DNA of 64,000 nucleotides from an uncultured Prevotellaceae bacterium (lineage in GTDB: Bacteria; Bacteroidota; Bacteroidia; Bacteroidales; Muribaculaceae): NCBI GenBank assembly GCA_900318065.1, contig ONIY01000004.1, forward strand, positions 41,721 through 105,720. Reading direction: 5' to 3'. Under the pieces are notes generated by a model. It was not told the origin of the DNA and did no database searches. It saw only the letters and a list, made by a program, of their open reading frames with translations. Below are positions 1,651-39,350 of this stretch, one piece after another. Within the stretch, counting starts at the first letter, position 1. The number at the start of each line of letters is the position of its first letter. The position numbers and the translations under genes were made by a program.

Positions 1651-1840
1651 AATGCACAATGTACAATCTTTTTAAATGCACAATGCATAATGCACAATTA
1701 TCCCCTCGGATGCTCGATCGCTCGAATGCTCGAATGCTCGAATGCTTGAACACTCGACCGCTCGATCCCCGCGCCGCAGGCGCTTACTTAACACTTAAAA
1801 CTTCACCCTTAACACTTCACCCACGTTCCACGATCCACCT
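1651..1840. repeat. Composite short tandem repeat element
   Basis: (AATGCAC)n, then (TGCTCGAA)n, CCCCGCGCCGCAGGCGC, (TTAACAC)n and (TTCCACG)n. Confidence 0.85.
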
Positions 1841-2007
1841 TCCAGGTTTCCCTCGCCATAGGCGCTTGATTCGCTTGCTTCGTTGAAAGAAATTGATAAA
1901 TCTTGCATAAATTGTTATTATTTTTGTAATTTTGGCAGATTTTGGATTGAAATATTCTTGTGAGAGATAATAAAATAGCCTTTAAACATTAACTTAACTT
2001 CTTATAT

Positions 2008-4992
2008 ATGAAAAAGATACTATTATTGACCATGACGGCTGTTGTGGCATGGACTGCTGCAATGGCTGTACCGGCAAAACCAGGATTAAACTCCATTAAG
2101 TTGAGCGATGGCTCCACGCTGCAGGTGCAGGCGATTGGCGACGAGTGGCATCACAGCCTCGCTACTGCCGACGGGCTGACTATCGCCCTTGCCGACGACG
2201 GATTTTTCTATTATGTGGCCGCTGGAAACGTGACGCAGGTGCGGGCTCACGATGCCGACCAGCGCAGCGCCAGCGAACTCTCGTTTGTTAACGCCAATAA
2301 GGACCAGTTGACCATTGCGGCACTCTACGACGCCAAGCGGCAGTCGGGCATGCTGCGCAGCGTGCGTCCGCGCGGCATCTCGCCAAGGGCGACTCAGGTG
2401 CCCAACAGCGGTTCGCCACGCGTGCCCATCATTCTGGTGCAGTACACCGACAAGAGCATGAGCAACACCAAGACGCAGTTTCAGGCTCAGTATAACACCA
2501 ACCCCAAGAGTGCGTTCAACTACTTCAAGGACCAGAGTAACAGCCTGTACACTCCGCAATTCGACATCTACGGCATCTATACCTTGCCCAGCAGCCGTGC
2601 CACCTATGGCGGCAACAAGTCTAATGGCGACGACCAGGGCGTGGCGCTGATGGTGGCCGATGCTGTCACTAAGGCAGGCAACGACATCAACTGGGCGCAA
2701 TATGACAACGATGGCGACGGCAAGGCCGACGTGTGCATCGTGGTCTATGCTGGCGTGGGCGAGGCACAGGCAAGCTACACCGTGCCCGAGGCCGTGTGGC
2801 CCTGCCAGTGGAGCCTCTCGTCGGGCGCCTACTATGGCGACGGCCCTGGCCCCATCACACGCAATGGCGTGACAATCGACAAGTTTGCTGTGTTTAACGA
2901 GGTCTCGGGCAGCAACGACAGCGGCACAACGCTTGATGGCGTGGGCACCTTCTGCCACGAGTTCTCGCACTGCCTGGGATTGCCCGACTTCTACGAGACC
3001 AACCGATACAGCCATGGCTACTTTGGCATGGGCTACTGGAGCATTATGGACACCGGCTGCTACAATGGTGGCTCTATCGACGGCGACACCCCCATTGGCT
3101 ACAGTGCCTATGAGAAGAACTTCATGGGATGGATCAACCTCATTACTCCCACCGAGAACACGTTCTACACTCTGCCAGTGTTCAACAGCAAGACCGCTGC
3201 CAACGACCAAGCCATTAAGATCACGGCGTTGAACTCCAACGAGTACTGGATTCTTGAGAACCGCAGGAAGCAGAATTGGGATTATTACATCGACGATGAG
3301 GGTGTTCTCATTACTCATTTCACCTACGTTGAAGACCGCTGGAGCGACAACTCAGTCAACAACCAGAGCGTGCAGCTGGCAACTGTCATGCCTGCCGACA
3401 ATAGCCTCTCAGGATCTAGCCTCGACAAGGATCTCTATGGCGAGACCAATCATGCGTTTGGACCAACGACCAGCCCTGCCATGAAGGCCAACATGACCGC
3501 TGGCGGCTCGCTATCGTCGACGACTGGAGGCGCTGGCGTTGTAGACAAACCCGTGACCGAGATAAACCTCAACAGCAATGGCACTGCCTCGCTGTGGTAT
3601 ATGAAAGGCGCAGCCCCAACAATTTCCGTCACTCCATCGAGCCTGCAATTCCAGGGATATATGGGTGAGACCTATACCAAGACCTTCACCGTTAACGGCA
3701 ACAACCTCACCGGCAACGTCACCATCACCAAGCAAGGCTCCAGCGCCTTCACCGTGTCGCCAGCATCAATCACTGCGGCAAGCGCAGCCAGCGGCGCGCA
3801 GGTGACCGTTACCTATTCTCCCACCGCCGTGGGCAATGCCAGTGCCGTCATCACTATTGCCAGCGCCGGCGCGCAGAGTGTGACCCTCAACGTGACTGGC
3901 ACAGCCCAGGACCGAGTGCCCACTATCGAGGTGGACCCGGCAGCGCTCAGCTTCAATGCCAACCTCTCGTCGACAGTCACCAGGACCCTCACCGTTACCG
4001 GACTGTTCTTGACAAGCGACGTGACAGTGACCCTTAACGACGAGAACGGCGTGTTCAGCGTTACGCCAATGGTCATTCCCGCAGCAAGTGCGGCAGGTGG
4101 CGCGCAAGTGAGCGTGTCGTTCAACTCGGCACAGGAAGGCAACTTCACTGGCTCGCTCACCATTGCCAGCCAGGGCGCGACAAGCAAGACCGTTCAGCTC
4201 AGCGCCATTGCCTTCGAGGGTGGCACTGCCAGCGACACCTATCTCAATCTCGAGAAGTATGAGACCATCGACGAGGCAGGAGCAGCAGTGAGCGGCATGA
4301 ACTCGATTTACCGTTACACCGAGTATGAAGACGACGAAGTTGCTTGGCTCACATTCTCCAACTTTGGCGTGCACATGGCAGCCTCCAAGCAGAACTGGCT
4401 CACAAGCTCGTCGCTCACGCAGTATACCAACGACTGGAATGCCACCGATGTGTTCCTGGGCGACAATTCCTATTTTGGAAGCAACAACAGCTATTCGGTC
4501 TATGGAAGCGGAAACCAGACGTTCTTTGTCACTAACTGCACCCAGGTGAAGGCTCTGGTCAAGGGCACTAGTGGCGGCACCACCTCAAGGGCCACGCTGG
4601 CAATCTATGAGTGCACACTCAACCCCGACGGCACTCTCACTGCCTCGTCCGCGGCAACCGACACTCAGTATAGCATTTCACAGAACGATGCACAAGTAGT
4701 GGCATCGGCAACGCTCGATGCTGCCAAGTTCTACAAGGTTCAGCTCACTGGCGGCGGCTCCTATCCCGACCTCCTGGAGATTGGATTCCAGACCCCGCTT
4801 CAGTCGCCTGCCGTTGGCGTCTTTGGCGACGTGAACCTCGATGGCATGGTGACCACTGTCGACATCACTTGCCTCTACAACTATCTCCTCAACGGCGACA
4901 CAACCTACATCGCCACAAGCGACTTGAACGGCGACGGGCAAGTCACCACAGTCGACATCACAATAATCTACAACATCCTGCTAGGCGATTAA
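2008..4992 (+). CDS. Secreted M6 (immune inhibitor A-like) metalloprotease with Ig-like repeats and C-terminal dockerin-like domain
   Basis: Signal peptide; HEFSHCLGLPDFY zinc motif; WSIMD Met-turn; repeated Ig-like segments; C-terminal duplicated GDVNLDGMVTTVDIT / SDLNGDGQVTTVDIT. Confidence 0.9.
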   Translation: MKKILLLTMTAVVAWTAAMAVPAKPGLNSIKLSDGSTLQVQAIGDEWHHSLATADGLTIALADDGFFYYVAAGNVTQVRAHDADQRSASELSFVNANKDQLTIAALYDAKRQSGMLRSVRPRGISPRATQVPNSGSPRVPIILVQYTDKSMSNTKTQFQAQYNTNPKSAFNYFKDQSNSLYTPQFDIYGIYTLPSSRATYGGNKSNGDDQGVALMVADAVTKAGNDINWAQYDNDGDGKADVCIVVYAGVGEAQASYTVPEAVWPCQWSLSSGAYYGDGPGPITRNGVTIDKFAVFNEVSGSNDSGTTLDGVGTFCHEFSHCLGLPDFYETNRYSHGYFGMGYWSIMDTGCYNGGSIDGDTPIGYSAYEKNFMGWINLITPTENTFYTLPVFNSKTAANDQAIKITALNSNEYWILENRRKQNWDYYIDDEGVLITHFTYVEDRWSDNSVNNQSVQLATVMPADNSLSGSSLDKDLYGETNHAFGPTTSPAMKANMTAGGSLSSTTGGAGVVDKPVTEINLNSNGTASLWYMKGAAPTISVTPSSLQFQGYMGETYTKTFTVNGNNLTGNVTITKQGSSAFTVSPASITAASAASGAQVTVTYSPTAVGNASAVITIASAGAQSVTLNVTGTAQDRVPTIEVDPAALSFNANLSSTVTRTLTVTGLFLTSDVTVTLNDENGVFSVTPMVIPAASAAGGAQVSVSFNSAQEGNFTGSLTIASQGATSKTVQLSAIAFEGGTASDTYLNLEKYETIDEAGAAVSGMNSIYRYTEYEDDEVAWLTFSNFGVHMAASKQNWLTSSSLTQYTNDWNATDVFLGDNSYFGSNNSYSVYGSGNQTFFVTNCTQVKALVKGTSGGTTSRATLAIYECTLNPDGTLTASSAATDTQYSISQNDAQVVASATLDAAKFYKVQLTGGGSYPDLLEIGFQTPLQSPAVGVFGDVNLDGMVTTVDITCLYNYLLNGDTTYIATSDLNGDGQVTTVDITIIYNILLGD

Positions 4993-5057
4993 GCCCGAGT
5001 GGGAGGTGGATCGAGGATCGGGGATCGGGGATTGGGGATTGGAAGATCCTTGGGCAA

Positions 5058-5173
5058 TGTAGGGACAAGGCGTGCCTTGTCCGTATCTCCCCTCTAAGAT
5101 AGAGGGGGCGGGGGGGAGTATGATTTCATCAACAAAAGTTCCCTCACTGTAGGGACAAGGCGTGCCTTGTCCG
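5058..5173. repeat. Two GTAG-REP copies flanking a second palindromic repeat type
   Basis: TGTAGGGACAAGGCGTGCCTTGTCCG at 5058-5083 and 5148-5173; CCCCTCTAAGATAGAGGGG...GGGGAGTATGA at 5087-5123. Confidence 0.85.
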
Positions 5174-5379
5174 TCTGCGGCGCAGAAATCGAAGATCGGG
5201 GATCGGCAAACTTAATAAACCACAGGTTTTTCAGATTAATCTGTTTAATCTGTGGTTTATCTTGACTTTTGCGCGTCTACCTAGTTATATACAAGAAACG
5301 ACAGGGCAAGATGACAGGCAAATGACTGGGCAAAATGACTGTCCAAAAACACAAAAATGACGTTTTTTTCTTCAAATCA

Positions 5380-5410
5380 TTTGTCAATTAAAAAAATTGC
5401 ACTACCTTTG
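5380..5410 (+). promoter_or_regulatory. Bacteroidetes sigmaA promoter of tRNA-Leu
   Basis: TTTG (5380-5383), 19 nt spacer, TACCTTTG (5403-5410): matches the TTTG-N19-21-TAnnTTTG consensus 14 nt before the tRNA. Confidence 0.8.
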
Positions 5411-5424
5411 CAACCGCTTTTCGA

Positions 5425-5508
5425 GCCCAGATGGCGGAATCGGTAGACGCGCTGGTCTCAAACACCAGTGGGGTAACACCCGTGCCGGTTCGACCCCGGC
5501 TCTGGGTA
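5425..5508 (+). tRNA. tRNA-Leu(CAA)
   Basis: GCCCAGA/TCTGGGT acceptor stem, D arm GGCGGAATCGGTAGACGC, anticodon arm CTGGT-CTCAAAC-ACCAG, long variable arm, GGTTCGACCCC T arm. Confidence 0.96.
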
Positions 5509-5509
5509 C
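5497..5509 (+). repeat. att core, tRNA-proximal copy
   Basis: CGGCTCTGGGTAC, identical to 13127-13139. Confidence 0.88.
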
Positions 5510-5590
5510 ATTCCCCACTTTTACCCCACTTACATAAAAAATTAGTATTTTTTGCCGAATTTTGATGTCGAGGTTGGGGTTGTAGGTTGT

Positions 5591-5630
5591 AACAAAAAAG
5601 ACGTTGCCAGACATCACGCCCGACAACGCC
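5591..5630 (-). terminator. Intrinsic terminator after terL
   Basis: Minus strand GGCGTTG...CAACGTC followed by TTTTTTGTT. Confidence 0.7.
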
Positions 5631-5694
5631 AAATCACATTTAAATTTTGCCATGTGGCAACAATTCGCCACAAAGGTAGTCAATTTAATTGATG

Positions 5695-6870
5695 TCAACA
5701 AATGTGACCAATATGTGGTCTTGGTGTCCTGATTGGTCGTTGAGTTTGTAAAAAGGTTGTCACGCCATACCTCAACGCATCGAGTGAATGATTATATCGG
5801 TCAATTGGAATGTTGATATAATTTCCATTCGCATCACGTTTCCATGAATAGTTCCGCAATTCGTCAATCACGCCCAACGAGTTTTTGGTGACATTGATTT
5901 TATACGCCTGAACCATCGTAATGCCCGAAACAACTGAACCGATCCCCTTAACGCATGCGACTGCACGAAATCCACCGATGTTGTTTATTTCGGCGATACT
6001 TTTTTTCTCTGCACTATCACAAACGATTTGGGCATTCTTTTGAACATGGTTCTGTTGCAGTACATTCACAATGTCGCCGTTGAGCATGGCGTTGCGATAC
6101 GCCAATTCTTCAACCCACAATTCACCACCCGACAACCGAACCCTCAAAATACTCGTTGGGTCGTTTGTGAACCCGAAATCGATACAATAGAATTCTCGTT
6201 TGAATGTCGATGGCATTTCGGGAACGGTTGCCCATCTGGTATAAATCAACCCCTCGACACTACCCATCTCACCTAAACCGTACACTCTCCACCAATTTTC
6301 ATCGTCTTTGTAAGCCTCAATAGCTTGGCGTTGGCGGTCTGTGAGAAATGGGTTGTCTTTATATGTCGAGTGTATCAATGCAACATCAGGTTTGCCCAAA
6401 ATGTTGTCATCAACCCAAAATCGGGAACGAGGGTTGTAGTCCAGAAAAATCAATGCTCTCGTTCTTACCTCTAATTGGCGGTAAATCTCCCAATCGACAA
6501 AATAACATTCGTTGATAAAAAGCACATCACGAGCCGAACCGTGAACCTTGCCCTCGTTATCAGCCGAAAAGAATTCAATCTGTGAACCGTTGTCAAAGGA
6601 ATAAACCAAATCTGTGGCGTTCCATTTATCGGCGTTCCATGCTCCCCCCATCATTGAATGAAAGTCACGAATTGCGCCACGTTTGAGAAATGGGATTGTT
6701 TCGCCGACAACTGAAATCAAAATGCCATCGCAATGTGTCGCCAATGTAGCACACAACTGCAACAATGACCACGTTTTGCCTGAACGTGTACCACCTTTGT
6801 TCACGATGACATGATGGTTGTTCATGGCAACGATATTTCTGTTGTATATGTCACTAACTGACCAATCCAT
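5695..6870 (-). CDS. terL: Phage terminase large subunit, PBSX/XtmB-like
   Basis: Walker A GGTRSGKT, Walker B VLFINEC, LDYNP coupling motif, nuclease acidic motifs CIDFGFTNDPT, VCDSAE and DRYNHSLDALRY. Confidence 0.9.
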   Translation of the reverse strand: MDWSVSDIYNRNIVAMNNHHVIVNKGGTRSGKTWSLLQLCATLATHCDGILISVVGETIPFLKRGAIRDFHSMMGGAWNADKWNATDLVYSFDNGSQIEFFSADNEGKVHGSARDVLFINECYFVDWEIYRQLEVRTRALIFLDYNPRSRFWVDDNILGKPDVALIHSTYKDNPFLTDRQRQAIEAYKDDENWWRVYGLGEMGSVEGLIYTRWATVPEMPSTFKREFYCIDFGFTNDPTSILRVRLSGGELWVEELAYRNAMLNGDIVNVLQQNHVQKNAQIVCDSAEKKSIAEINNIGGFRAVACVKGIGSVVSGITMVQAYKINVTKNSLGVIDELRNYSWKRDANGNYINIPIDRYNHSLDALRYGVTTFLQTQRPIRTPRPHIGHIC

Positions 6871-7180
6871 TCAAACCACCCCTCTTGATTTTTTCAAGCG
6901 TTGCACGACTTTCAGCCGATAAATTGGCGATAACAATTTGCTCTCTGTCATCGGTGATGTCGGCTTTTACGGCTTGTTGCTTTGGCAACGAGTAGTTAAG
7001 TAATTCCAAAAAGAATTTAGAACGTTTTTCTGGGTCAAGTTCTTTGATGTCGTTGATAAAATTTTCTCGATTATCAACGAGAAATCTCTCAACCCATTCT
7101 CTCAATTCGTTGGTCGCTTTGTTCTTTGCGCCCCTGGGTCGCCCATTTGGGTTTCCCGACTGACCTTTTTTAAATGCCAT
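6854..7180 (-). CDS. Putative terminase small subunit (DUF5681-like N-terminus)
   Basis: MAFKKGQSGNPNGRP motif; overlaps the terL start by 17 bp. Confidence 0.7.
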   Translation of the reverse strand: MAFKKGQSGNPNGRPRGAKNKATNELREWVERFLVDNRENFINDIKELDPEKRSKFFLELLNYSLPKQQAVKADITDDREQIVIANLSAESRATLEKIKRGGLNGLVS

Positions 7181-7183
7181 GTC

Positions 7184-7420
7184 TTAAATCTCCTTTGTAT
7201 TTTTATTGTTATTTACAATGGTCAGCACATCGCCGTTGATGGTGACCAACTTTAATCTCTCGCATCGTTTGAGTAACTTGGTTGCTCCTTTTGTGTAGGT
7301 CTGGAAATGCCCACACAAACAAGTTGTGAACACCGATGGCATGGTGGCGTTGCCGTGAAAGTCGGCAAACCACCTACAAAATGCCATCAGGTCGTTATCG
7401 GTTATTCGCTCCAACATCAT
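7184..7420 (-). CDS. Small hypothetical protein, possible winged helix
   Basis: 78 aa; 4-bp overlap with the upstream primase; C-terminal KLLKRCERLKLVTINGDVLTI resembles a wHTH wing. Confidence 0.6.
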   Translation of the reverse strand: MMLERITDNDLMAFCRWFADFHGNATMPSVFTTCLCGHFQTYTKGATKLLKRCERLKLVTINGDVLTIVNNNKNTKEI

Positions 7421-8397
7421 AGTTCTTTCAACTCGATTTGAATATGTTTCGGGTCGAGGTTACACGCCAATATCAGGTCGCCAATGTCATCACCACCGTT
7501 CAGTTTCCACCGTTGCAATGTGTCGGGTCGCTCCATGATGTCAACGATTGATAATGTCTTAAACAGATGGCGCAATTTTTGCCCTTTTTCGCTCCATTCA
7601 GCGAGTTTTCCATTGTCAGGTATTAACACCACATTTCGCCCTCTCAACGGCTCACAGAACGCAATTGTGAGGTTTTGGCAACCACCGCATGCCAACACAA
7701 TGCAGTCGGTCACAATTGCACTCAACATGATGGCGGTTTTCTCACTCTCCACGATGACAACAAACATGTCGGGGTATTTTGCCAATAAGTGTTCCCCGAA
7801 TAGGCATTGGCGCAAAATGTAGCTTGGAATCTTCAATGCCGAATGAACCCATGTAATGCGGTTATATGGCTCTTTAACACGTTTTCCATTGTCGGGGTTA
7901 TACTGCATTATCTTACCGCCGTGAACACGACCACCGCCATCAATCTGCCAGAACACCGTTGCACCACTCCAATGGTTTGACGTGCCAATGTAGTAGTCGG
8001 CAATCATGCGTTTAACAATCTTCTCCCCGAACACTCTGTTTAGAAAAGTAATCAGGTGGTTACGTTCTTTGTAGGTCGCCATTACTGATTTTTTGAACAC
8101 ATCACCATGTTGCCTGATAAATACTTTGTCGTTGATGTATATGGGTCGGGGTTGAGGCTTGGAAACATATTTTGTTCTGTTGCGCTTATGTTCTCCATCG
8201 TCACCGGGTCGCTTATGGTATCCACAACTATTAATCCGCTCACATCGTCCATAATAGTTCGCATCAATTATTTCACGGTCGGCATTAAGATAAGGAACGA
8301 ATGTTTTATGACCACAATTGGGGCATTTCAATTTGCCCCTCATCGCCGTTTGCTCCCTCGGCGTTGCTAAACTTACGTCATATTCTTTTGAAATCAT
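7417..8397 (-). CDS. Zn-finger + TOPRIM primase-like protein (DUF6371-like)
   Basis: CPNCGH...CERINSCGYH zinc ligands; IVESEKTA, LIPDNG and GDDIGD TOPRIM acidic motifs. Confidence 0.75.
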   Translation of the reverse strand: MISKEYDVSLATPREQTAMRGKLKCPNCGHKTFVPYLNADREIIDANYYGRCERINSCGYHKRPGDDGEHKRNRTKYVSKPQPRPIYINDKVFIRQHGDVFKKSVMATYKERNHLITFLNRVFGEKIVKRMIADYYIGTSNHWSGATVFWQIDGGGRVHGGKIMQYNPDNGKRVKEPYNRITWVHSALKIPSYILRQCLFGEHLLAKYPDMFVVIVESEKTAIMLSAIVTDCIVLACGGCQNLTIAFCEPLRGRNVVLIPDNGKLAEWSEKGQKLRHLFKTLSIVDIMERPDTLQRWKLNGGDDIGDLILACNLDPKHIQIELKEL

Positions 8398-8499
8398 CTT
8401 TTTTTAATCTCCTATTGGGTTGTAAGGTTGTAGGTTGTAGATGGTTTATTCTGTTGATTGTCAGGTTATAATCCCACAATTAACCTACAACCTCAACAA

Positions 8500-9873
8500 T
8501 CATTTAAATGCTTTACTAATAGCTTGTGGGGTAATTCCCAATGCTCTCGCCAACTCGGACTGATTTATTTTGAAACCATCGTTGCGGTCTTTTTCATACC
8601 GCTCTTTCAGCATTCTCAATATATCGCCGTTGGTTAAATCCTTTGGTTGGGTGTCGTCATTGGCTATCAAACAAAATGCTCTCTCGGCGCACCATTTGAA
8701 ATATTCCATGCACTCAATCGAGTATTTCATTACATCAGCCTCAATTCGTTGGTCGCCTCGCAAGACTGCAACGCATGCGCACCACCGGCAAAGATGATAA
8801 TTCAGCTTATCGACATACGCACCCATTGCGATAATGCCTTGTTCCTCGTATTCATCTGCCTGGGTATCCCATTTTTGAAGAACCGCATCATGTAGTTGTT
8901 CAGCCTCCGGGGTTTCGTACAAATCAGGGAATGAGCATGAAGAAAGTTTTTTGATGTATTCCCGCCAGGTTTCTTTGCTATCATTCCCCATGATATGTTT
9001 AATTCTTGGCGGTCGCTTTCTTCGCTCTGGAAAAGCATATAAGAAACGTTGGAACATGCCATCTTTGTCGTAACCCTTTTTCCCCATCATCTGTTTTAAT
9101 ACTGATGGTTGGGTAGTTCCCGCCATGCTCAAATTTGGGTGTTCGGCTCTCAATGTTTCACGACCTATTCTGTCTATTGATGTCGGGTCATAGTCGAATA
9201 TTTTCATTAGATTGCCGACTACCACACCATTTGCGCCGTTCTTATATAATCCCCAACTTTCGATTGTGGCTCTCATCTCGTCATTAAGCCAACAGATGTC
9301 GCCAACTTCCGCTAATGCTTTCATTACAAATTCATCGGTGGCGTTACCTATTAACCTGCGATGGTAAATTGGTTCTTCTCCCTCACATTTATTCGCTCTC
9401 CATTGCTCCATTTCTTGTTTATAGAGATTGTAAGCCTCATTCTCCATTTCTTGGATTGGTTCAAAAAAGAACTTTAACGGCTTGGATTTTCCCCTACTAC
9501 TATCGGCAATGGTCATAATCCACAATGTGGCGTGATTGGTGTAATTGTCATGGTGAGCCGTGACCCTTTTCCCTACGATGCAGGCGGTCGCACCCATTAG
9601 ACTTGCAACAACGAAATCTCTATAACTGCGGTAACCTTTCGTTACATCTTCAACGACATTCCGCAATGGTTCAGGCAACCCCCAAATGGGCAATTCTGTG
9701 ACCTCGGCGGTGATGTCATCAGGTGATGGTTCTGGATCGTCTGTTAGTGAGAAATCGGGTTGTGGGTCATCAGCTTTTTCAGCCTCGAAAACTTGCCTAT
9801 TATCAAGATTATCACTAACTTTGTCCTGGTCTTGTTGGGGTGCGTCATGCGCCCTTTTTTCTTGTTCTGTCAT
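8500..9873 (-). CDS. DUF3987-like replication protein (degenerate P-loop) with C-terminal HTH
   Basis: ADSSRGKS P-loop-like segment, DEMR, GTTQP, GMFQRFLY motifs; C-terminal INQSELARALGITPQAISK HTH. Confidence 0.7.
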   Translation of the reverse strand: MTEQEKRAHDAPQQDQDKVSDNLDNRQVFEAEKADDPQPDFSLTDDPEPSPDDITAEVTELPIWGLPEPLRNVVEDVTKGYRSYRDFVVASLMGATACIVGKRVTAHHDNYTNHATLWIMTIADSSRGKSKPLKFFFEPIQEMENEAYNLYKQEMEQWRANKCEGEEPIYHRRLIGNATDEFVMKALAEVGDICWLNDEMRATIESWGLYKNGANGVVVGNLMKIFDYDPTSIDRIGRETLRAEHPNLSMAGTTQPSVLKQMMGKKGYDKDGMFQRFLYAFPERRKRPPRIKHIMGNDSKETWREYIKKLSSCSFPDLYETPEAEQLHDAVLQKWDTQADEYEEQGIIAMGAYVDKLNYHLCRWCACVAVLRGDQRIEADVMKYSIECMEYFKWCAERAFCLIANDDTQPKDLTNGDILRMLKERYEKDRNDGFKINQSELARALGITPQAISKAFK

Positions 9874-10235
9874 GTTGTTGCTCCTTTTTTGGCGATGTCG
9901 CCCTCTATAATATGGTTAACATCACTTTTGCGATACCGGCGTTTCCCGCCCACGTTGATGGGAACGAGATAACCGGCTTTTCGCCATCTCCACAATGTGC
10001 CACGGCACACGCCGAACATCTCCATCACTTTCTCAATGCTCAAATATGTTTCGGCGTTCTGGTCGGCAATGGTCTGCTCCAACTCACTTTTGACGTTAGA
10101 GATAAGAATGTTGCCGAACTCAACCAATTCGCCCAACTTAACAGACACTATCATGTCGGGGCATTCTTTTGATAACTTTATTAAATCCTTTGTCATAATA
10201 TTATTGAATTTAATAACCCGGCTCTCCCCATGCAC
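9870..10235 (-). CDS. Excisionase-like MerR/HTH_17 DNA-binding protein
   Basis: YLSIEKVMEMFGVCRGTLWRWRKAGYLVPINVGGKRRYRKSDV; 4-bp overlap with the next gene. Confidence 0.8.
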   Translation of the reverse strand: MHGESRVIKFNNIMTKDLIKLSKECPDMIVSVKLGELVEFGNILISNVKSELEQTIADQNAETYLSIEKVMEMFGVCRGTLWRWRKAGYLVPINVGGKRRYRKSDVNHIIEGDIAKKGATT

Positions 10236-10349
10236 TCACCGATGGCGCATTTCGTTTGCCGTATGGTCTTGATGGTGTCGGTGTTCGCCAATCTCGACAC
10301 GGCAAAGGTAGCACAATGTTCTATTGGCGTGAAAATGGGGATGGTTACA

Positions 10350-10377
10350 AACAAAAAAGACGTTGAAAAACAACGCC
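10350..10377 (-). terminator. Intrinsic terminator after the 219-aa gene
   Basis: Minus strand GGCGTTG-TTTTT-CAACGTC-TTTTTTGTT. Confidence 0.7.
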
Positions 10378-10420
10378 TTAATCATAATATTGGGGATTAG
10401 TATTGGGGATTAAATGGGGA

Positions 10421-11080
10421 TTAATCCAAATAATAAAACATTCGCCTAATTGTGTCGCTTGGTTGATACTTATTCTTGTGATTTTCTTTTGGGCATTCAC
10501 GACCGATTATGTCAAAAAACTCTCTAAACCATTTGGTGAAAGTTGATGGTTTTTTAATAAAGCAACTGCATTCAAAAATCATAACGGCGACCATTCCCAA
10601 TTCCCTGCCAACTTTGATTGTTTGAATGTCATTAACTAAATCGACAAAGTGATTGGGGTTGCTCCCACAACCTTTGAATTTGGCATTAAAGAACGAACCC
10701 AATCGTTCCTCATCAATAGATAACGAGCCGTTGACCTCATCGTTGTTGTTGGCAAACCACTCTCTCAACCATCTCACTTGAATGTCGTTTAATGGTTGTG
10801 TTTGCTTGTTTACGGCGGTTATTTCTCCATTGGCGACCAACAACTCATCTTCAATATTTTTCATCGAAACATCGTGTTTTTTGCGCCATTCTGCACAATC
10901 AGGCGTTGCAAATTCGGTGGACAATATCGCATCGAAAACGACCCTATCAGGCGAGGATTTCAGCTTTATAATAACCTCGTCACACCAACATCGAAACAAC
11001 GATGTCGGCAATTTCCCGGTACGTTCTTTTATCTCTCGGTTTATTTCGGCAATGCGTTGAGGTGTCAATTTGCTTTTCAT
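10421..11080 (-). CDS. Hypothetical protein (element-encoded)
   Basis: 219-aa ORF with 4-bp overlap to the upstream gene; no motif recognised. Confidence 0.7.
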   Translation of the reverse strand: MKSKLTPQRIAEINREIKERTGKLPTSLFRCWCDEVIIKLKSSPDRVVFDAILSTEFATPDCAEWRKKHDVSMKNIEDELLVANGEITAVNKQTQPLNDIQVRWLREWFANNNDEVNGSLSIDEERLGSFFNAKFKGCGSNPNHFVDLVNDIQTIKVGRELGMVAVMIFECSCFIKKPSTFTKWFREFFDIIGRECPKENHKNKYQPSDTIRRMFYYLD

Positions 11081-11463
11081 GGCTCTATCACTTTTTTAAC
11101 GATTGATATTTCTTTGATTTCATCAATGGGCAACTCAATGGTCATGTCGGGGTTGAACATTCGCATGACAACGAACCACCCATTTTCAACGGCAACGAGT
11201 TGTTTAACCAATGCGTGATTGATGTTTAGCGAGTTGGGAACGTATGGCTCAACCATAACGATTTCGTTCTGGTAGGCGTGCCAATTACGAATGAACTCAC
11301 GCCTCTCAATGTGTTGCGCCAATAGCATGTCGCCATCTTTAATTCTAATCGGGCAATCGTCATGGTTCAGGCAATCGCCCTTGATGGTAAAAGCGAAATA
11401 ATTATGGTCGGCGTTATATCCAGGAATGTCGCTTGTTTTGATGTCGATATTATCTTTGTGCAT
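11077..11463 (-). CDS. Stand-alone S24/LexA-like peptidase domain protein
   Basis: FAFTIKGDCL...IKDGDMLL...ALVKQL resembles the S24 pattern (GDSM, GD, vKr); no N-terminal HTH. Confidence 0.6.
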   Translation of the reverse strand: MHKDNIDIKTSDIPGYNADHNYFAFTIKGDCLNHDDCPIRIKDGDMLLAQHIERREFIRNWHAYQNEIVMVEPYVPNSLNINHALVKQLVAVENGWFVVMRMFNPDMTIELPIDEIKEISIVKKVIEP

Positions 11464-11567
11464 ATTCGTTCAATTTTGGGGTTGAGGTTGTAGGCGTGTT
11501 TCTCGTTCAACCCTCATGGGCATTGACTTTTGAGCAACTACAACCTACAACCCTACAACCAACGTTA

Positions 11568-12902
11568 TTACTCTAACATGGTTACCAACTCACGGCTCGT
11601 TTCTTCATCAATCTCACGGTAACGGCTGAACGCCCTCGACCCCTCTTTGTGTCCTGATAGCTTACCAATCAAATTCGGGTCTTTCACTTTCTTATAGAGG
11701 TTGCCAACGAAACAACGGCGTGCGAGGTGACTGCTTGCAATGTCACAGATGGGTCGTTGTTCTTCTTCTCTGGTGGTGGGGTTTATCACGGTTACAATCC
11801 GGGTCAATCCCGACAACCTGAACATGGTTTTGATGTCACGATTGTACTGTTGTTGTGTTGTCAGCTTGAACAACTTTACTTTGTCAAAGTCTTTATATCT
11901 CTCCACGATTTCGGTGGCGATGGCATTCAAGGGAACACGAACCGTGATGGCTCTTCCCTCTTTGGTCTTTCGGGGAATGTACTCAATTGCACCATTAACG
12001 AGATTGCTCTTGGTCATCGCCCATAAATCACTCACACGGCAACCAATCAGGCATTGGAACACAAATATATCTCGTTGGCGTGCGAGGTCGGGATTGTCGC
12101 TGAAATCAAAATTGTAAAGCTGATTACGTTCCTCGATGGTGATATAATACGGCGTACCATAAACACATTCGGCAATCGTGAAATGCTTGAATGGGTTGGT
12201 GGTGGTATAATCGTTTTCATTCGCCCAAATGTAGAATGAACGCAATCTAATCATAAAATCATTGATGGTGTTCTTCCCCCTGGGTTGAGGCGTACGAGTT
12301 TCAGGAACGGCGGTTAAAACCTTTTGATATTTCTTTTGGTCAACCAACTTATGTTCATCAGCAAGAAATTTCTCAAAATCTCGCAATGTGTCGGCGGTGA
12401 TGTTTTCAAATGTGAACGACAACCCTTTGAATATCTCGTATCGTTTCAATGTTCGCCAGATAACACGGTTCTGCTTACGGCGGTGGTCGCTGAACTTATG
12501 GGTGTCGATATAATGTTCATAGACATCAAAGAATGAATGTTGAGATTGCTCCCCATCGGTGGCGGTTGGGAAATTGAACCCATCAATCAGGGATTTCAAC
12601 CAATCTTTCGCCACGTTGCTTTTGTCGATTGCCTGGAATGACGACTGAACCAATGACGTGATTTCATTGAGGCGGTCAATCTTTTTGTGTAACTCATTTA
12701 TAAGTTGCTTTTTCTCATCTGTGAGCAATCTCGCATTGGGAATTTTAATGCTTTTGGTGTCATTGCTCCAATGGTCGGGGTGAACGAACACGTTGGTTTT
12801 TGCGTATTGGTCAACTTTGCCGTGACGAAAACGCATCAAGATTTCATGTTGGTTGGTCTGCTTGTCGGTCTTTGCCGAAAGTCTTAATGTGATTGTTGCC
12901 AT
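11568..12902 (-). CDS. Tyrosine recombinase/integrase (Bacteroidales IntDOT/IntN1-like)
   Basis: N-terminal arm-binding-like domain; catalytic R (GCRVSD), K (RKTK), HxxR (HLARR), LSGH and Y (SRY). Confidence 0.95.
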   Translation of the reverse strand: MATITLRLSAKTDKQTNQHEILMRFRHGKVDQYAKTNVFVHPDHWSNDTKSIKIPNARLLTDEKKQLINELHKKIDRLNEITSLVQSSFQAIDKSNVAKDWLKSLIDGFNFPTATDGEQSQHSFFDVYEHYIDTHKFSDHRRKQNRVIWRTLKRYEIFKGLSFTFENITADTLRDFEKFLADEHKLVDQKKYQKVLTAVPETRTPQPRGKNTINDFMIRLRSFYIWANENDYTTTNPFKHFTIAECVYGTPYYITIEERNQLYNFDFSDNPDLARQRDIFVFQCLIGCRVSDLWAMTKSNLVNGAIEYIPRKTKEGRAITVRVPLNAIATEIVERYKDFDKVKLFKLTTQQQYNRDIKTMFRLSGLTRIVTVINPTTREEEQRPICDIASSHLARRCFVGNLYKKVKDPNLIGKLSGHKEGSRAFSRYREIDEETSRELVTMLE

Positions 12903-13126
12903 AATTCTGTATAATTTAAATGTGATGGTACAAAATTAGGCATTTATCCCCACATATCAAAATTTTTCCCCACTTTTTCCCCACTTTTTTTGAACATAAT
13001 TCAACACGGATAAACAAGTTTAGACAAACAAAATATCGCTAAATTGCTGATATATGTTAAGTTAAATTTGTAAGTTGGTGTTTCTCGGCAATCTCGCAAA
13101 TTACCCATGTTTAATATTTTTGGTCA

Positions 13127-13139
13127 CGGCTCTGGGTAC
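13127..13139 (+). repeat. att core, distal copy
   Basis: CGGCTCTGGGTAC duplicate of the tRNA 3' end. Confidence 0.88.
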
Positions 13140-13149
13140 GCTTGAAGGT

Positions 13150-13185
13150 GCCAATCGTTTGAATTTCAAATGGTTGGCTTTTTTT
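13150..13185 (+). terminator. Hairpin-polyT, probably the original tRNA terminator displaced by the insertion
   Basis: GCCAATCGTTTGA...TCAAATGGTTGGC followed by a T run, 10 nt after the distal att copy. Confidence 0.65.
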
Positions 13186-13324
13186 ATTGCTATTTTTGGC
13201 GACTTTTTGGCGAGATCAGGAAAAATCAGCCGTTTTCAAAGAAATCTCGAAAACGGCTGATTTTTCTTTCGTATTTTGGTGATTTCTCTGCTACTCTAAC
13301 GGACTTTTATCGGCCTCCCAAAAA

Positions 13325-14515: not shown

Positions 14516-14613
14516 AGTAAAAATTTTTGTTTATTGTTTGTTTATAGTTTATTGTTTGTAGTTTATAGTTTATGGAAGTAGGAAGCGTAGGAAATAAAAT
14601 AACATCCTGATTT

Positions 14614-22094: not shown

Positions 22095-22372
22095 GTTAAA
22101 AGGTAAAAGGTGAGAGGTGAGAGGGAAGTGGTGAGAGGTGAGAGGTGAGAGGTGAGAGGGAAGTGGTGAGAGGTGAGAGGTGAGAGGTGAGAGGGAAGAG
22201 GGCTCGAATGCTCGATCGTTCGAATGCTCGAGCTCTCGATTGCTCGAAAACTCGATTTCCCATCCCCGATCCTCGATCCCCGATCCCCGCGCCGTAGGCG
22301 CCACGTTCCACATTCCACGTTCCCCGCGCCGCAAGGCGCTAACTTAACACTTAAAACTTAACCCTTAACCCT
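22095..22372. repeat. Composite short tandem repeat element between convergent genes
   Basis: (AGGTGAG)n, (TGCTCGA.)n, (CCCCGAT)n, CGCGCCGTAGGCG, (TTCCACG)n, CGCGCCGCAAGGCG, (TTAACAC)n. Confidence 0.88.
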
Positions 22373-22374
22373 TA

Positions 22375-24409: not shown

Positions 24410-24638
24410 GAGGATGGGGGATGGGGGATCGAGGATCGAGGATCGGGGATGGGGGATCGAGCGGTTGAGCAATCGAGTTTTCGAGCAATCGAGTTCTCGA
24501 GCGGTCGAGCAATCGAGTTCTTGAGCAATCGATGTTGAGATTGAGATGAGCAACTTCGTCCTTTGTCCTTCGTCCTTTGTCCTTTGTCCTTTGTCCTTCG
24601 TCCTTCCACGTTCCACGTTTCACGCGCCGCAGGCGCAC
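24410..24638. repeat. Composite short tandem repeat element
   Basis: (GGATCGA/GGATGGG)n, (TCGAGCAA)n, (CTTTGTC/CTTCGTC)n, (TTCCACG)n, CGCGCCGCAGGCG. Confidence 0.85.
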
Positions 24639-26324: not shown

Positions 26325-26525
26325 TTTTCTTGGTTTATAGTTGATAGTTTATGGTTTATGGTTTATGGAAGGCAAGTTTGGTTTATTGTTGATAGTTTAT
26401 GGTTTATGGAAGGAAGAGGCGAGACCAGAGGCACGGCAGTCTCACAATCGGTCGGTAGGTCGCAAGGCACCGCCTTGCGAAAAAAAACTGAAAACTGAAA
26501 ACTGACCACTGATAACTGATAACTC
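26325..26525. repeat. Heptamer arrays upstream of metG
   Basis: (GTTTATG/GTTTATA)n and (ACTGAAA/ACTGATA)n; TACCTTTG -7 box follows at 26538-26545. Confidence 0.75.
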
Positions 26526-26577
26526 AAAACTTTTTCCTACCTTTGCAAAAAATTTCAGTTTAATAGAGTAATAACTT

Positions 26578-28629
26578 ATGTTTATGGAAAAACAGAAACA
26601 CTATGCACGCACTCTCGTGACCACCGCCTTGCCCTATGCCAATGGCCCTGTGCACATTGGACACCTGGCAGGAGTTTATGTACCCGCCGACATCTACGTC
26701 CGCTACCTGCGCCTCAAGGGCGAGGACGTGCTCATGATAGGCGGCAGCGATGAGCATGGAGTGCCCATTACCATCAAGGCACAAAAGGAAGGTGTTACAC
26801 CTCAAGACATTGTAGACCGCTACCACAAGATAATAAAAGAGTCGATGGCAGGGCTCGGAATCTCGTTTGACGTCTATGGGCGCACCACCAGCGAGATGCA
26901 CCGCCACACCGCCAGCGACTTCTTCAAGAAGCTATACGACAAGGGCGAGTTCATCGAGAAGATGAGCAAGCAGTTCTATGACGAGGAGGCCAACCAGTGG
27001 CTCGCCGACCGATACATCACCGGCACCTGCCCACATTGCGGCAACGACGGTGCCTATGGCGACCAGTGCGAGGCGTGCGGCACCTCGCTCAACGCCACCG
27101 ACCTCATCAACCCCCGCAGCGCCATCACCGGCAACGTGCCTGTGCTCAAGGAGACGAAGCACTGGTACATGCCGCTCGACAAGTGGGAGCCACGCCTGCG
27201 ACAGTGGATTCTCGAGGAGCACAAGGAGTGGAAGACCAACGTCTACGGCCAGTGCAAGTCGTGGCTCGACGGTGGCTTGCAGCCACGCGCCGTAACCCGC
27301 GACCTCAACTGGGGCATCCCCGTGCCCATCGAGGGCGCTGAGGGCAAGGTGCTATATGTGTGGTTTGATGCTCCCATAGGCTACATCAGCAACACCAAGG
27401 AGCTGCGTCCCGACGACTGGGAGAAGTACTGGAAGTCGCCCGACACGCGCATCATCCACTTCATTGGCAAGGACAACATCGTGTTCCACTGCCTCATCTT
27501 CCCCGCTATGCTCATGGCCGAGGGGTCTTATCAGCTCGCCGAGAATGTGCCTGCCAACGAGTTCCTCAACCTCGAGGGCGACAAGATTTCTACCAGCCGC
27601 AACTGGGCTGTGTGGCTCAACGAGTACCTCGAGGACTTCCCTGGCAAGCAGGACGTGCTGCGCTACGTGCTCACCGCCAATGCCCCCGAGACTAAGGATA
27701 ACGACTTCACCTGGAAGGATTTCCAGGACCGCAACAACAACGAGCTGGTGGCCATCCTGGGCAACTTCGTGAACCGCGCCATCGTGCTCACCAATAAATA
27801 CTTCGATGGCGTTATTCCCCAGGCTCACGAGCTCACCAGCTACGACCGCGACACCATCGAGGAGTTTAAGGGCGTGAAAGACGACCTGAGCCAGGCTCTC
27901 GACACGTTCCACTTCCGCGCCGCTCTCGCCGAGGCGATGAAGCTGGCTCGCATAGGCAACAAGTATCTTGCCGACACCGAGCCATGGAAGCTCGCCAAGA
28001 CCGACATGATACGCGTGGAGACAATCATGAACATTGCCCTGCAAATCACTGCCAACCTCGCCATCGCCTTTGAGCCGTTCCTCCCCTTCAGCGCCGAGAA
28101 ACTGCGCAAGATGATCAACCTCGACCATGCCGACTGGAACAAGTTGGGCTCAATCGACATCCTCAAGGCGGGCGACCGAGTGGAGAAACCCGAACTGCTC
28201 TTCGAGAAAATCGATGATGAGACCATAAAGATTCAAACCGACCGCCTCGAGCGCATCAAGCAGGAGAACATCCTCAAGAACTTCAAGCCCAAGGCTGTGG
28301 CGCCCACGGTGGCGTTCGACGACTTCCAGAAGCTCGACATCCGCGTGGGCAAGGTGCTCGCCTGTGAGAAGGTGAAGAAGGCCGACAAGCTCCTCAAGTT
28401 CACCATCGACGACGGACTGAAGGGACGCACCATCGTCTCGGGCATCGCCAAGTTCTACAACCCCGAGGACCTCGTGGGCAAGGATGTGTGCTTTATCGCC
28501 AACTTCGCGCCACGCACGCTCAAGGGCATTGAGTCGCAGGGAATGATTCTGAGCGCCGAGGATGCCGACGGACGGCTGGTAGTAATAGGCCCCCACGGAG
28601 AAGTGCGCCCAGGCGTTCAGGTGGGATAA
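26578..28629 (+). CDS. metG: Methionine--tRNA ligase
   Basis: [13 protein letters not shown], zinc knuckle CPHC..CEAC, KISTS, C-terminal tRNA-binding domain. Confidence 0.98.
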
Positions 28630-28759
28630 TCCACATTCTTGATTTTAGCATTACAACCCCAGGGAATAATCTCGTAGAGAGGCTCTCCCTGGGGTTTGTT
28701 GCATTCTGGCTTACTTTTCTTTGTCACCCCAGTGGGGGACTCCCTTGATTAACTGGACT

Positions 28760-28793
28760 AAAAAATGCACCCGCATGGTGCGGATGCATTTTT
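28760..28793 (-). terminator. Intrinsic terminator
   Basis: AAAAAATGCACCCGCA...TGCGGATGCATTTTT hairpin after the adhesin-like gene. Confidence 0.75.
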
Positions 28794-28818
28794 AAAGTTT
28801 AACGTGCAAGTAAGTCAA

Positions 28819-38783: not shown

Positions 38784-38918
38784 TGGTTTATGGTTTATGG
38801 AAAGCAGAGGTGAGAGGTGAGAGGTGAGAGGTGAGAGGGAAGAGTACTCAACTACTTTACTATTCTACTACTCAACTATTATACTGAAAACTGACTACTG
38901 ATAACTGACTACTGATCA

Positions 38919-39137
38919 ATGACCGTTTCATTTCAATATTACAACGAGAGCGAGGATGCTAGCGAGACTTTCCGTTTCGCCAGCGAGGAGAAAGCCATGA
39001 ACAAGTTCTGCGAACTGGCGGAGCTCATCAGGGAGCAGTTTGACAACTGCCCTGACGCCGAGGTAATCGACGAACCCGACTTCTTCGGAATAATCGACCA
39101 CGACTCTGGCGACTGGGCTAAAGTGATAATACAGTAG
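38919..39137 (+). CDS. Small acidic hypothetical protein
   Basis: 72-aa ATG ORF with coding-like composition between two repeat arrays. Confidence 0.55.
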   Translation: MTVSFQYYNESEDASETFRFASEEKAMNKFCELAELIREQFDNCPDAEVIDEPDFFGIIDHDSGDWAKVIIQ

Positions 39138-39350
39138 AACGTGGAACGTGGAACGTGGAACGAGGAACGAGGGAAGAGGGAAGAGGGAAGAGGGAAATGC
39201 ACAATGCATAATTAATCCCTCGAATGTTCGACCGCTCGAATGTTCGACTGCTCGACCGTTCGACTGCTCGAATGTTCGACCGCTCGACCGTTCGACTGCT
39301 CGATTTCCCATCCCCGATCTCCTATCCGCGTCCGCAGGCGTCGCGCGGCG
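39138..39350. repeat. Composite short tandem repeat element
   Basis: (GTGGAAC)n, (GAGGGAA)n, (AATGCAC)n, 8-mer CTCGA/TTCGA array, CCCCGAT, CCGCAGGCG. Confidence 0.85.

What the first reader, a model, noticed from the sequence alone, without database searches (positions are those of the whole stretch)
1675..39208. Empty perfect target sites for the IS110 element lie in other repeat arrays of this window
The 13-nt predicted target AATGCACAATGCA occurs exactly at 1675-1687 (upstream of dinB) and 39196-39208. A one-mismatch copy (AATGCTCAATGCA) lies near 43135. All are in intergenic composite repeats. Inference: the repeat family supplies many intergenic safe-harbour sites, which would be a repeat/IS relationship like REP/IS621 but for heptamer arrays.
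Basis: partly seen in the sequence, partly recalled or inferred. Interest (0 to 1): 0.65.

Follow-up and report, generated by a model that had tools for sequence, protein, structure and literature searches.

The report
Guide-RNA jumping gene targets heptamer repeats
A small mobile element in this rumen bacterium carries a guide RNA written to recognise two adjacent copies of a 7-base host repeat, so the genome holds dozens of ready but empty landing sites (two perfect ones in this window); this is a clean new example of the bridge-RNA mechanism described in 2024, not a new mechanism.

Summary
Observation confirmed. AATGCACAATGCA occurs exactly at 1675-1687 and 39196-39208. The genome holds 41 exact copies against 0.09 expected, nearly all in (AATGCAY)n heptamer arrays between genes. 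The resident 1364-bp IS110-family element (36161-37524, minus strand) splits this same word: TGCATTGT|IS|GCATT, with a shared GT core. Its upstream non-coding RNA folds into two internal-loop stem-loops. One loop carries UGCAUUGU and AAUGCAC, which are the guides the IS621 rule predicts for this target. In seven related lineages these guide positions change together with the relatives' own flanks. Metagenome contigs that carry the same element give 24 distinct left and 21 distinct right junctions. All 24 left junctions end in GT, 19/24 read TGCATTGT, and 19/21 right junctions read GCATT. Eight of this genome's perfect empty sites are occupied elsewhere, some as clean occupied/empty pairs. The 43135 copy is mismatched in the crossover dinucleotide and is probably not usable here, although a longer allele of that array is occupied in another strain. 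"Safe" is not shown: site 1 lies 80 nt upstream of dinB, and one insertion elsewhere splits a large ORF. The window's two perfect sites were not seen occupied. This is a new member of a known kind, of moderate interest.

The parts
1675..1687 (+). Perfect empty target site 1. In the element's orientation (minus strand) it reads A-TGCATT-GT-GCATT-T. It lies in an (AATGCAY)n array about 80 nt upstream of the dinB start codon (ATG at 1595, minus strand) and about 320 nt upstream of the + gene at 2008.
   Evidence: The flanking bases also match the bases next to both guides (A before the LTG, A before the RTG).
39196..39208 (+). Perfect empty target site 2. It lies between a small + gene that ends at about 39136 and the + gene at 39422, inside the composite (GAACGTG)n(GGAAGAG)n-AATGCACAATGCA-(CTCGAMYG)n. 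The right side matches 9 nt of the RNA (GTGCATTTC).
43135..43147 (+). One-mismatch copy AATGCTCAATGCA, which reads TGCATT-GA-GCATT. The mismatch is in the crossover dinucleotide, so it is probably not usable here. A longer allele of this same array is occupied by the element in metagenome contig L033.
1651..1694 (+). The same array as site 1, with two further one-mismatch copies. The copy at 1651-1663 has an LT mismatch (TACATTGT). The copy at 1682-1694 has core AT instead of GT.
36161..37524 (-). Resident IS110-family element, 1364 bp counting one copy of the GT core. Its ends are CGTACATTTGTACGG... and ...TTTAACATAGTTCGT. It has no terminal inverted repeats and no target duplication.
   Evidence: The length and ends are identical in more than 40 metagenome loci.
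36290..37291 (-). Transposase/recombinase of 333 aa (DEDD_Tnp_IS110 plus Transposase_20). It is the exact protein P0121, which is on record on 458 contigs.
   Evidence: ISCro4 1e-25, IS621 1e-24; the D/E/D/D and SGSS motifs align
37317..37464 (-). Bridge-RNA core: two stem-loops, each with an internal loop. Guides: LTG 37437-37444 (UGCAUUGU), RTG 37417-37423 (AAUGCAC), LDG 37374-37381 (AUAGUUCG), RDG 37341-37346 (UGCGAC, with one G.T wobble against GTCGTA).
   Evidence: The pairing rule is from PMC11208160.
37525..37532 (-). Left half of the occupied target (TGCATTGT, which is LT plus core), abutting the element's left end.
36156..36160 (-). Right half of the occupied target (GCATT), abutting the element's right end.
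59146..59158 (+). One-mismatch copy (TGCATTGTGCCTT) inside the murG-like coding sequence. It is not in an array and is not part of the system.

Best explanation
The window carries one copy of an active-looking IS110-group insertion sequence. Its recombinase is guided by a bridge RNA encoded in the element's left end. The target-binding loop of that RNA is written for TGCATT-GT-GCATT. This word arises whenever a host heptamer unit AATGCAC is followed by another AATGCA unit.

Short (AATGCAY)n arrays are one module of the composite heptamer/octamer repeats that fill intergenic regions in this rumen Muribaculaceae-like clade. The genome therefore offers about 40 perfect landing sites, mostly intergenic, including 1675-1687 and 39196-39208.

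Insertion exchanges strands at the GT core, which is shared by the target and by the element's circular RE-LE junction (ATAGTTC-GT-CGTACA). It leaves TGCATTGT|IS|GCATT without a duplication.

What is shown:
- the target word, from 24 left and 21 right independent junctions and from occupied/empty pairs;
- the guide-to-flank match and its covariation in related lineages;
- the two-loop RNA fold;
- the independence of the repeat from the element.

What is inferred:
- recombination activity and a circular intermediate;
- a Bacteroidota-type promoter (TTTG-N20-TAnnTTTG) formed only at the circle junction;
- that insertion in the arrays is harmless.
For: The element's flanks rebuild the exact 13-mer. 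Pfam finds DEDD_Tnp_IS110 and Transposase_20, and the protein is homologous to the experimentally characterised ISCro4 and IS621 recombinases.

Guides:
- The LTG UGCAUUGU has the sense of LT plus core, and the RTG AAUGCAC is the reverse complement of core plus RT. This is the rule given in PMC11208160 (coordinates).
- In seven related lineages with 55-79% identical transposases (L001, L002, L005, L006, L123, L131, L139), the same loop positions read ATTGCTGT, TGAACTGT, TGAACTGT, TAAACTGT, AAAAGTGT, ATTTTCGT and CTTTTTGT.
- Each matches its own left flank at 7 or 8 of 8 positions. The RTGs match the right flanks with at most one mismatch or wobble.
- The consensus fold has two stem-loops with internal loops, and 8 pairs show compensatory changes.

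Junctions in metagenomes:
- There are 24 distinct left and 21 distinct right junction contexts. GT ends 24/24 left junctions, TGCATTGT 19/24, and GCATT starts 19/21 right junctions.
- Clean occupied/empty pairs: L021 with C43:2137, L024 with C60:593, L163 and L168 with C25:37841.
- Eight perfect empty sites of this genome are occupied elsewhere.

Abundance and distribution:
- The 13-mer occurs 41 times against 0.09 expected.
- The repeat is present in about 14 congeneric species that lack the element.
Against:
- The window's own two perfect sites were not seen occupied in the junctions sampled.
- Only one copy of the element exists in this assembly, so activity in this strain is not shown.
- Several short metagenome contigs pair the left flank of one site with the right flank of another (L028, L031, L035). 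These may be assembly chimeras, so whole insertions are certain only for long contigs and for pairs where both flanks map to one site.
- The RDG needs a G.T wobble.
- Not every insertion is in an array or between genes: L158 and L159 split a large ORF, and 5/24 left and 2/21 right junctions carry one or more mismatches.
Confidence: 0.9

Rival explanations
1. Coincidence or by-product. The 13-mers exist only because AATGCAY arrays are common. The element happens to sit in one such array, and the other copies are not real targets.
For: The abundance of the word is fully explained by the arrays. The two perfect window sites were never seen occupied.
Against: 24 left and 21 right independent junction contexts share the word, with an invariant GT core. 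Eight of this genome's perfect sites are occupied elsewhere. The guide loop encodes the word and covaries with the flanks in relatives.
Confidence: 0.03
2. The heptamer arrays are products of the element, for example excision footprints or copies of its ends, and not pre-existing host repeats.
For: The first 11 nt of the left end (CGTACATTTGT) end in a TTGT that resembles the left target. One variant carries an 11-bp tandem duplication of these 11 nt.
Against: The arrays occur at 10-116 exact 13-mers per genome in about 14 congeneric species that have no copy of the element. IS110 insertion leaves no duplication, and the empty sites equal the joined flanks exactly. The element's ends do not contain the heptamer unit.
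Confidence: 0.02
3. Target choice is made mainly by protein or DNA-structure recognition of the repeat, as proposed for the dual sequence-structure match of ISPpu10 at REP hairpins. On this view the RNA match is secondary.
For: The abstract of the ISPpu10 preprint proposes a layer of specificity beyond RNA-DNA pairing (10.64898/2026.03.19.712850, listed). Positions -12 to -10 of the left flank are also conserved (ATT in 18/22).
Against: The heptamer array is not palindromic, so no hairpin is available. The conservation beyond the guides is what the array context predicts. Insertions outside arrays still obey the 8+5-nt word (L026, L158). Relatives with a near-identical scaffold and recombinase use unrelated targets that follow their guides.
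Confidence: 0.05

Closest known systems
IS621 (E. coli) and its REP targets; ISCro4 (bridge recombinases of the IS110 group; PMC11208160, PMC11208158)
   Same: - It has a DEDD/RuvC-like plus Tnp-domain recombinase (E 1e-24 to 1e-25 against the solved structures).
- The bridge RNA is encoded upstream in the left end and has a target loop and a donor loop.
- The LTG has the sense of LT plus core, and the RTG is complementary to core plus RT.
- The core dinucleotide is shared by donor and target, and there is no target duplication.
- The natural target is an abundant intergenic host repeat that exists without the element.
   Different: - The recombinase is only distantly related to IS621 and ISCro4.
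- The core is GT, not CT.
- The target is two adjacent units of a non-palindromic 7-nt tandem repeat, not a REP hairpin. One array can therefore offer several targets spaced 7 nt apart, and an intact target can remain next to an inserted copy (L019, L163).
- A C/T polymorphism at unit position 7, or a change in array length, makes or destroys a target.
- The host is an uncultured rumen Bacteroidales bacterium.
ISPpu9 and ISPpu10 of Pseudomonas putida (IS110 family, inserted in REP sequences; PMC12288879; 10.64898/2026.03.19.712850)
   Same: IS110-family elements whose copies all lie in copies of one intergenic repeat.
   Different: Their target is a structured REP element. Here the target is a tandem heptamer with no hairpin.
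Heptamer tandem repeats of bacteria (TAACTGA repeats of Beggiatoaceae, Cyanobacteria and some Bacteroidetes, PMC4679880; cyanobacterial STRR, from my own knowledge)
   Same: They are intergenic arrays of 7-nt units with a patchy, clade-specific distribution and unknown function. AACTGAY arrays of the same unit occur in this window (54585-54646).
   Different: No link between those arrays and an RNA-guided insertion sequence turned up in that paper (term search) or in my literature searches.

Membership tests
IS110 family, IS110 group (bridge-RNA-guided insertion sequences) | Recombinase with an N-terminal DEDD (RuvC-like) domain and a C-terminal Tnp (Transposase_20) domain with a conserved serine | tested here: met
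   Pfam PF01548 at 3.6e-23 and PF02371 at 7.8e-21. In the alignment to ISCro4 the GVD, MEAT, KTDAxDA and SGSS motifs are conserved.
IS110 family, IS110 group (bridge-RNA-guided insertion sequences) | Non-coding RNA in the left end, upstream of the recombinase gene, with two stem-loops that each carry an internal loop | tested here: met
   The RNAalifold consensus on 8 lineages has 31 pairs, 8 of them with compensatory changes, arranged as two stem-loops with internal loops. The single-sequence fold has z = -2.8. Rfam 15 reported no bridge-RNA match on this stretch.
IS110 family, IS110 group (bridge-RNA-guided insertion sequences) | Target-loop guides match both halves of the target, core included, and covary with the target among relatives | tested here: met
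   This element: UGCAUUGU and AAUGCAC against TGCATTGT|GCATT. In seven related lineages the guides follow their own flanks. The rule is from PMC11208160.
IS110 family, IS110 group (bridge-RNA-guided insertion sequences) | Donor-loop guides match the element's own ends across the RE-LE junction | tested here: met
   The LDG AUAGUUCG matches the right end ...ATAGTTC-G. The RDG UGCGAC pairs with GTCGTA with one G.T wobble, and it is UACGAC, a perfect match, in three relatives.
IS110 family, IS110 group (bridge-RNA-guided insertion sequences) | No terminal inverted repeats and no target-site duplication; one core dinucleotide is shared by both junctions | tested here: met
   The empty sites equal left flank plus right flank with a single GT. 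The element is 1364 bp in all loci.
IS110 family, IS110 group (bridge-RNA-guided insertion sequences) | Circular intermediate whose junction forms the promoter; demonstrated recombination | not testable with these tools
   There is only sequence-level support. The RE-LE junction reads TTTG-N20-TACATTTG, which fits the Bacteroides -33/-7 consensus as I know it, and this is conserved in relatives.
REP/IS621-type relationship (an element that lives on an abundant host intergenic repeat) | The target is a multi-copy host repeat that exists independently of the element | tested here: met
   41 copies in this genome. 10-116 copies in about 14 congeneric species without the element.
REP/IS621-type relationship (an element that lives on an abundant host intergenic repeat) | Many independent insertions fall in copies of that repeat | tested here: met
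   24 left and 21 right distinct junctions. 16 of 24 left flanks have a further repeat unit directly upstream. Eight of this genome's empty sites are occupied elsewhere.
REP/IS621-type relationship (an element that lives on an abundant host intergenic repeat) | The repeat is a REP element (an imperfect palindrome that forms a hairpin) | tested here: not met
   The target is a direct tandem heptamer with no dyad symmetry. The relationship is therefore analogous to REP/IS621, and the repeat is not a REP.

The most novel reading that the evidence does not exclude
The clade-specific heptamer arrays and this element form a changing landing-pad system. Unit polymorphism (AATGCAC versus AATGCAT or AATGCTC) and gain or loss of units continually create and destroy bridge-RNA targets, as at the 43135 locus. 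Arrays can keep an intact target next to an inserted copy. Copies in different arrays, or the recombinase acting directly on array targets, rearrange the chromosome. This last point would explain contigs whose two flanks come from different loci of this genome (L022, a 138-kb contig, joins C32:~6405 and C11:~3000).
Probability: 0.25. Interest if true: 0.55.

Novelty: new member of a known kind. Interest (0 to 1): 0.38.

Why it matters
This is a natural, well-documented case in which a bridge-RNA guide is set to a short tandem repeat and not to a REP hairpin. It has dozens of empty sites, several occupied/empty pairs, and sister lineages (72-79% identical recombinases) retargeted to quite different intergenic words. 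It gives a compact set of natural guide/target pairs, all with a GT core, from gut Bacteroidales, which may interest people who mine bridge recombinases. It also gives a marker for strain-level variation in rumen metagenomes. It draws attention to the very abundant, ordered heptamer/octamer arrays of this clade, whose function is unknown. It does not change the known mechanism.

Tried and rejected
- An Rfam search of the element at permissive thresholds found only a chance SurA hit (E 0.27) and reported no bridge-RNA match.
- A search for the element in 100 related species genomes found nothing closer than 30% identity, so occupied and empty sites could not be compared between species representatives. 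I used metagenome contigs instead.
- A scan of JGI metagenome contigs with the left-end 30-mer gave only two loci.
- I searched relatives with the joined flanks of the resident copy. Only the coding flank is conserved (at most 88% identity) and the intergenic arrays have diverged, so no orthologous empty site was recovered.
- I tried to look inside the 138-kb record behind L022 to test a rearrangement. That record is not held.
- My first regular expression for the guides failed on the relatives, so I used an alignment instead.
- The gene calls used for the intergenic statistic are a crude longest-ORF heuristic, so the 33/41 figure is approximate.
- I considered and rejected three ideas: that the arrays are footprints of the element, that the location is a coincidence, and that targeting is purely by protein or structure. 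See the rival explanations.
Full report
**1. The observation**

The 13-mer AATGCACAATGCA is present exactly at 1675-1687 and 39196-39208 on the + strand. One-mismatch copies are at 1651, 1682, 43135 and 59146. That is 6 matches against 0.24 expected, and none of 100 shuffles reached 6.

Both perfect copies lie in intergenic composite repeats built from runs of different heptamers and octamers. Site 1 is about 80 nt upstream of the dinB start codon. The IMS domains begin at residue 43 of the long ORF, so the true ATG is at 1595 on the minus strand. Site 2 lies between two + strand genes.

The window is C25:41721-105720 of a 2.985-Mb, 97-contig assembly with 50% G+C. Its closest named relatives, judged by a MurG-like protein, are uncultured ruminant-gut Muribaculaceae, Sodaliphilus and Prevotellaceae-labelled MAGs.

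Genome-wide there are 41 exact copies against 0.09 expected. They lie in 36 of 85 arrays of AATKCWY units. 33 of the 41 fall outside crude ORF calls that cover 85% of the genome. For 30 of the 38 sites with a called upstream ORF, that ORF lies on the strand on which the site reads AATGCAC, and in about half of these 30 it ends within 25 nt of the site (contexts).

**2. The element**

A 340-aa ORF at 36290-37312 (minus strand) carries DEDD_Tnp_IS110 and Transposase_20. The real product is the 333-aa protein that starts at 37291. It is identical to P0121, which is on record on 458 contigs. It is homologous to the structurally solved ISCro4 and IS621 recombinases (1e-25 and 1e-24), and the catalytic motifs align.

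On the minus strand the junctions read ...AATTGTGCATTGT|CGTACATTTGTACGG... and ...TTTAACATAGTTCGT|GCATTATCAATT.... The element occupies 36161-37524 and is 1364 bp counting one GT. Deleting it gives ...GATAATGCACAATGCACAATTAAG..., which contains the exact 13-mer. It is the only copy in this assembly.

**3. The guide RNA**

The rule published for IS621 has four parts (PMC11208160, read):
[quoted passage not shown] - The donor loop does the same for the element's ends.
- The core is included in all four pairings.

In the left end of this element the segments are placed as that rule predicts:
- GGCCGA-UGCAUUGU-UGG (37437-37444) is the LTG.
- CCGAA-AAUGCAC-GAU (37417-37423) is the RTG.
- AUAGUUCG (37374-37381) matches the right end ...ATAGTTC-G.
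- UGCGAC (37341-37346) pairs with GTCGTA at the left end with one G.T wobble.

I aligned this region with the same region of seven related lineages whose recombinases are 55-79% identical: L001, L002, L005 and L006 from species genomes, and L123, L131 and L139 from metagenomes. The scaffold is conserved and the guide positions vary.

| Lineage | LTG | Left flank agreement | Reverse complement of RTG | Observed right flank (with core) |
|---|---|---|---|---|
| L001 | ATTGCTGT | 8/8 | GTCCGCT | GTCCGAT |
| L002 | TGAACTGT | 8/8 | GTGTCAG | GTGTCAG |
| L005 | TGAACTGT | 8/8 | GTGTCAC | GTGTCAT (wobble) |
| L006 | TAAACTGT | 8/8 | GTGTCAG | GTGTCAG |
| L123 | AAAAGTGT | 8/8 | GTCCCAC | GTCCCAC |
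| L131 | ATTTTCGT | 8/8 | GTCTCCG | GTCTCAG |
| L139 | CTTTTTGT | 7/8 | GTCTCGG | GTCTCGG |

The consensus fold has two stem-loops, each with an internal loop that holds the guides, and 8 of 31 pairs show compensatory changes. Rfam 15 reported no match for such an RNA here. The 13-mer is therefore what this element's RNA is written to find.

**4. Occupied versus empty sites**

The exact protein and its 99%-identical cluster mates were looked up in public assemblies, and one DNA scan was run. The element is 1364 bp, or 1367 bp in one variant, in every locus.

Pooling all loci gives 24 distinct left-flank contexts and 21 distinct right-flank contexts:
- The left flank ends in GT in 24/24 and in TGCATTGT in 19/24. 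The exceptions are GCAATGT, GCATCGT, CCCATTGT, TCCATTGT and AGCATTGT.
- The right flank starts with GCATT in 19/21. The exceptions are GAATT and GCTTT.
- 16 of the 24 left flanks have another repeat unit directly upstream.

Mapping the flanks onto this genome shows that eight of its perfect, uninterrupted 13-mers are occupied elsewhere: C25:15806, C25:37841, C38:1668, C43:2137, C50:34178, C60:593, C75:2558 and C90:3421. For L021 with C43:2137 and L024 with C60:593, both flanks align base for base with the empty site, which is cut between TGCATTGT and GCATT. L163 and L168 map with both flanks to C25:37841.

The window's third site behaves differently. Here the array reads TGCATT-GA-GCATT, which is a core mismatch. 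In contig L033 the same locus has a longer array...TGCATTGT|IS|GCATTATGCATTGAGCATTGAGCATTTAAAAAGAGGAG, and it is occupied. Array length and unit variation therefore create and remove targets.

The two perfect window sites (C25:43395 and C25:80916) were not among the occupied sites sampled. By base-pairing they are at least as good as the used sites. Both have A at position -9 and T at position +6, which extends the match to the bases that flank the guides (A-UGCAUUGU and A-AAUGCAC). Site 2 matches 9 nt on the right.

**5. The repeat is independent of the element**

Among 60 congeneric species genomes, about 14 hold 10-116 exact copies of the 13-mer. The other congeners hold 0-3, and the 40 genomes from other families hold 0-4. 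None of these genomes carries a close copy of the element; the best match is 30% identical. The repeat is therefore a clade-specific host feature that the element exploits. Flanks of occupied sites are 84-100% identical to this genome, so the element occurs in this species and in close relatives.

**6. How 'safe' the sites are**

Most sites are intergenic. In the long contigs the transposase is mostly antisense to the neighbouring genes. This follows from the fixed orientation of the arrays behind upstream genes.

Harmlessness is not shown, for two reasons:
- Site 1 lies in the short divergent region upstream of dinB.
- In L158 and L159 the element sits at TCCATTGT|GCATT inside a reading frame that is open across the joined flanks for more than 60 codons on each side. 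The gene caller split this frame into 641-aa and 751-aa products.

**7. Inferred steps**

Joining the right end to the left end gives ...TATTTG-GAATTTAACATAGTTCGTCG-TACATTTG.... That is TTTG, then 20 nt, then TAnnTTTG. From my own knowledge this fits the Bacteroides -33/-7 promoter consensus (Bayley et al. 2000). The TTTG (or CTTG) and the TACATTTG are conserved at the same spacing in the relatives.

By analogy with IS621, a circular intermediate would switch on the bridge RNA and the recombinase. This was not tested.

**8. Comparison and verdict**

The system works like IS621 with REP, and it passes every sequence-level membership test for a bridge-RNA element of the IS110 group. The repeat itself is not a REP, because it is a non-palindromic tandem heptamer.

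My literature searches found IS110-family elements tied to REP sequences. They found no report of one tied to tandem heptamer arrays. Earlier unchecked notes of this scan describe similar cases in other genomes, with AGCCTAC and CATAG arrays. This lowers the surprise.

I rate it a new member of a known kind, of moderate interest.

Noticed in passing
whole window, e.g. 1618-1886, 22097-22374, 24412-24624, 38783-38923, 39137-39352, 43135-43353, 45844-46005, 54480-54646, 59840-59935: Intergenic regions are filled with ordered composites of different heptamer and octamer arrays. The order is GAACGTG/GGAAGAG/AGGTGAG/GGACAAA, then AATGCAY, then CTCGAMYG, then ATCCCCG, then a GCGCC-GCA-GGCGC hairpin, then ACTTAAC, then CCACGTT. 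The outer modules are reverse complements of each other. There are 122 TRF rows in 64 kb. Their function is unknown, and they are the larger open question here.
   Followed up: partly
54585-54646: An AACTGAC/AACTGAT array, which is the TAACTGA unit described as abundant intergenic repeats in Beggiatoaceae, Cyanobacteria and a few Bacteroidetes (PMC4679880).
   Followed up: no
L123-L146 (metagenome loci of P0005, P0011, P0014): Sister elements with 72-79% identical recombinases have rewritten guides and insert at AAAAGT-GT-CCCAC, ATTTTC-GT-CTCAGG and CTTTTT-GT-CTCGG. The left halves of the P0011 and P0014 targets look like the T-run after a GC-rich hairpin (terminator-like). The right flanks recur between sites, so these may be other intergenic repeats.
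   Followed up: partly
L163, L165-L168 (variant P0128): The left end carries an 11-bp tandem duplication: TGCATTGT-CGTACATTTGT-CGTACATTTGT-ACGG. The duplicated piece ends in TTGT, like the left target. This may be a trace of a half-matched recombination at the element's own end.
   Followed up: no
L022 (138-kb contig), L028, L031, L035, L157, L165: Contigs in which the element's left and right flanks come from different loci of this genome. For example, L022 has its left flank at C32:~6405 and its right flank at C11:~3000. These are either assembly chimeras across a multi-copy element or real rearrangements between copies. The record behind L022 could not be read.
   Followed up: partly
L158, L159: The element is inserted at a one-mismatch site (TCCATTGT|GCATT) inside a large reading frame that is open across the joined flanks. 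This is an off-target hit in a gene.
   Followed up: yes
36248-36293 (element's right end) and the ends of contigs C13, C50 and C92: A 46-bp GC-rich piece just after the transposase stop (it can be read as a short ORF, MKNTEG...) is 89% identical to an identical ~100-bp sequence at which three contigs of the assembly break. That sequence is therefore the end of some other multi-copy element, which was not identified.
   Followed up: partly
window locus 36161-37570 compared with L020: The same insertion site in another sample lacks about 38 bp of the CTCGAMYG octamer array next to the element. This shows array-length variation between strains.
   Followed up: no
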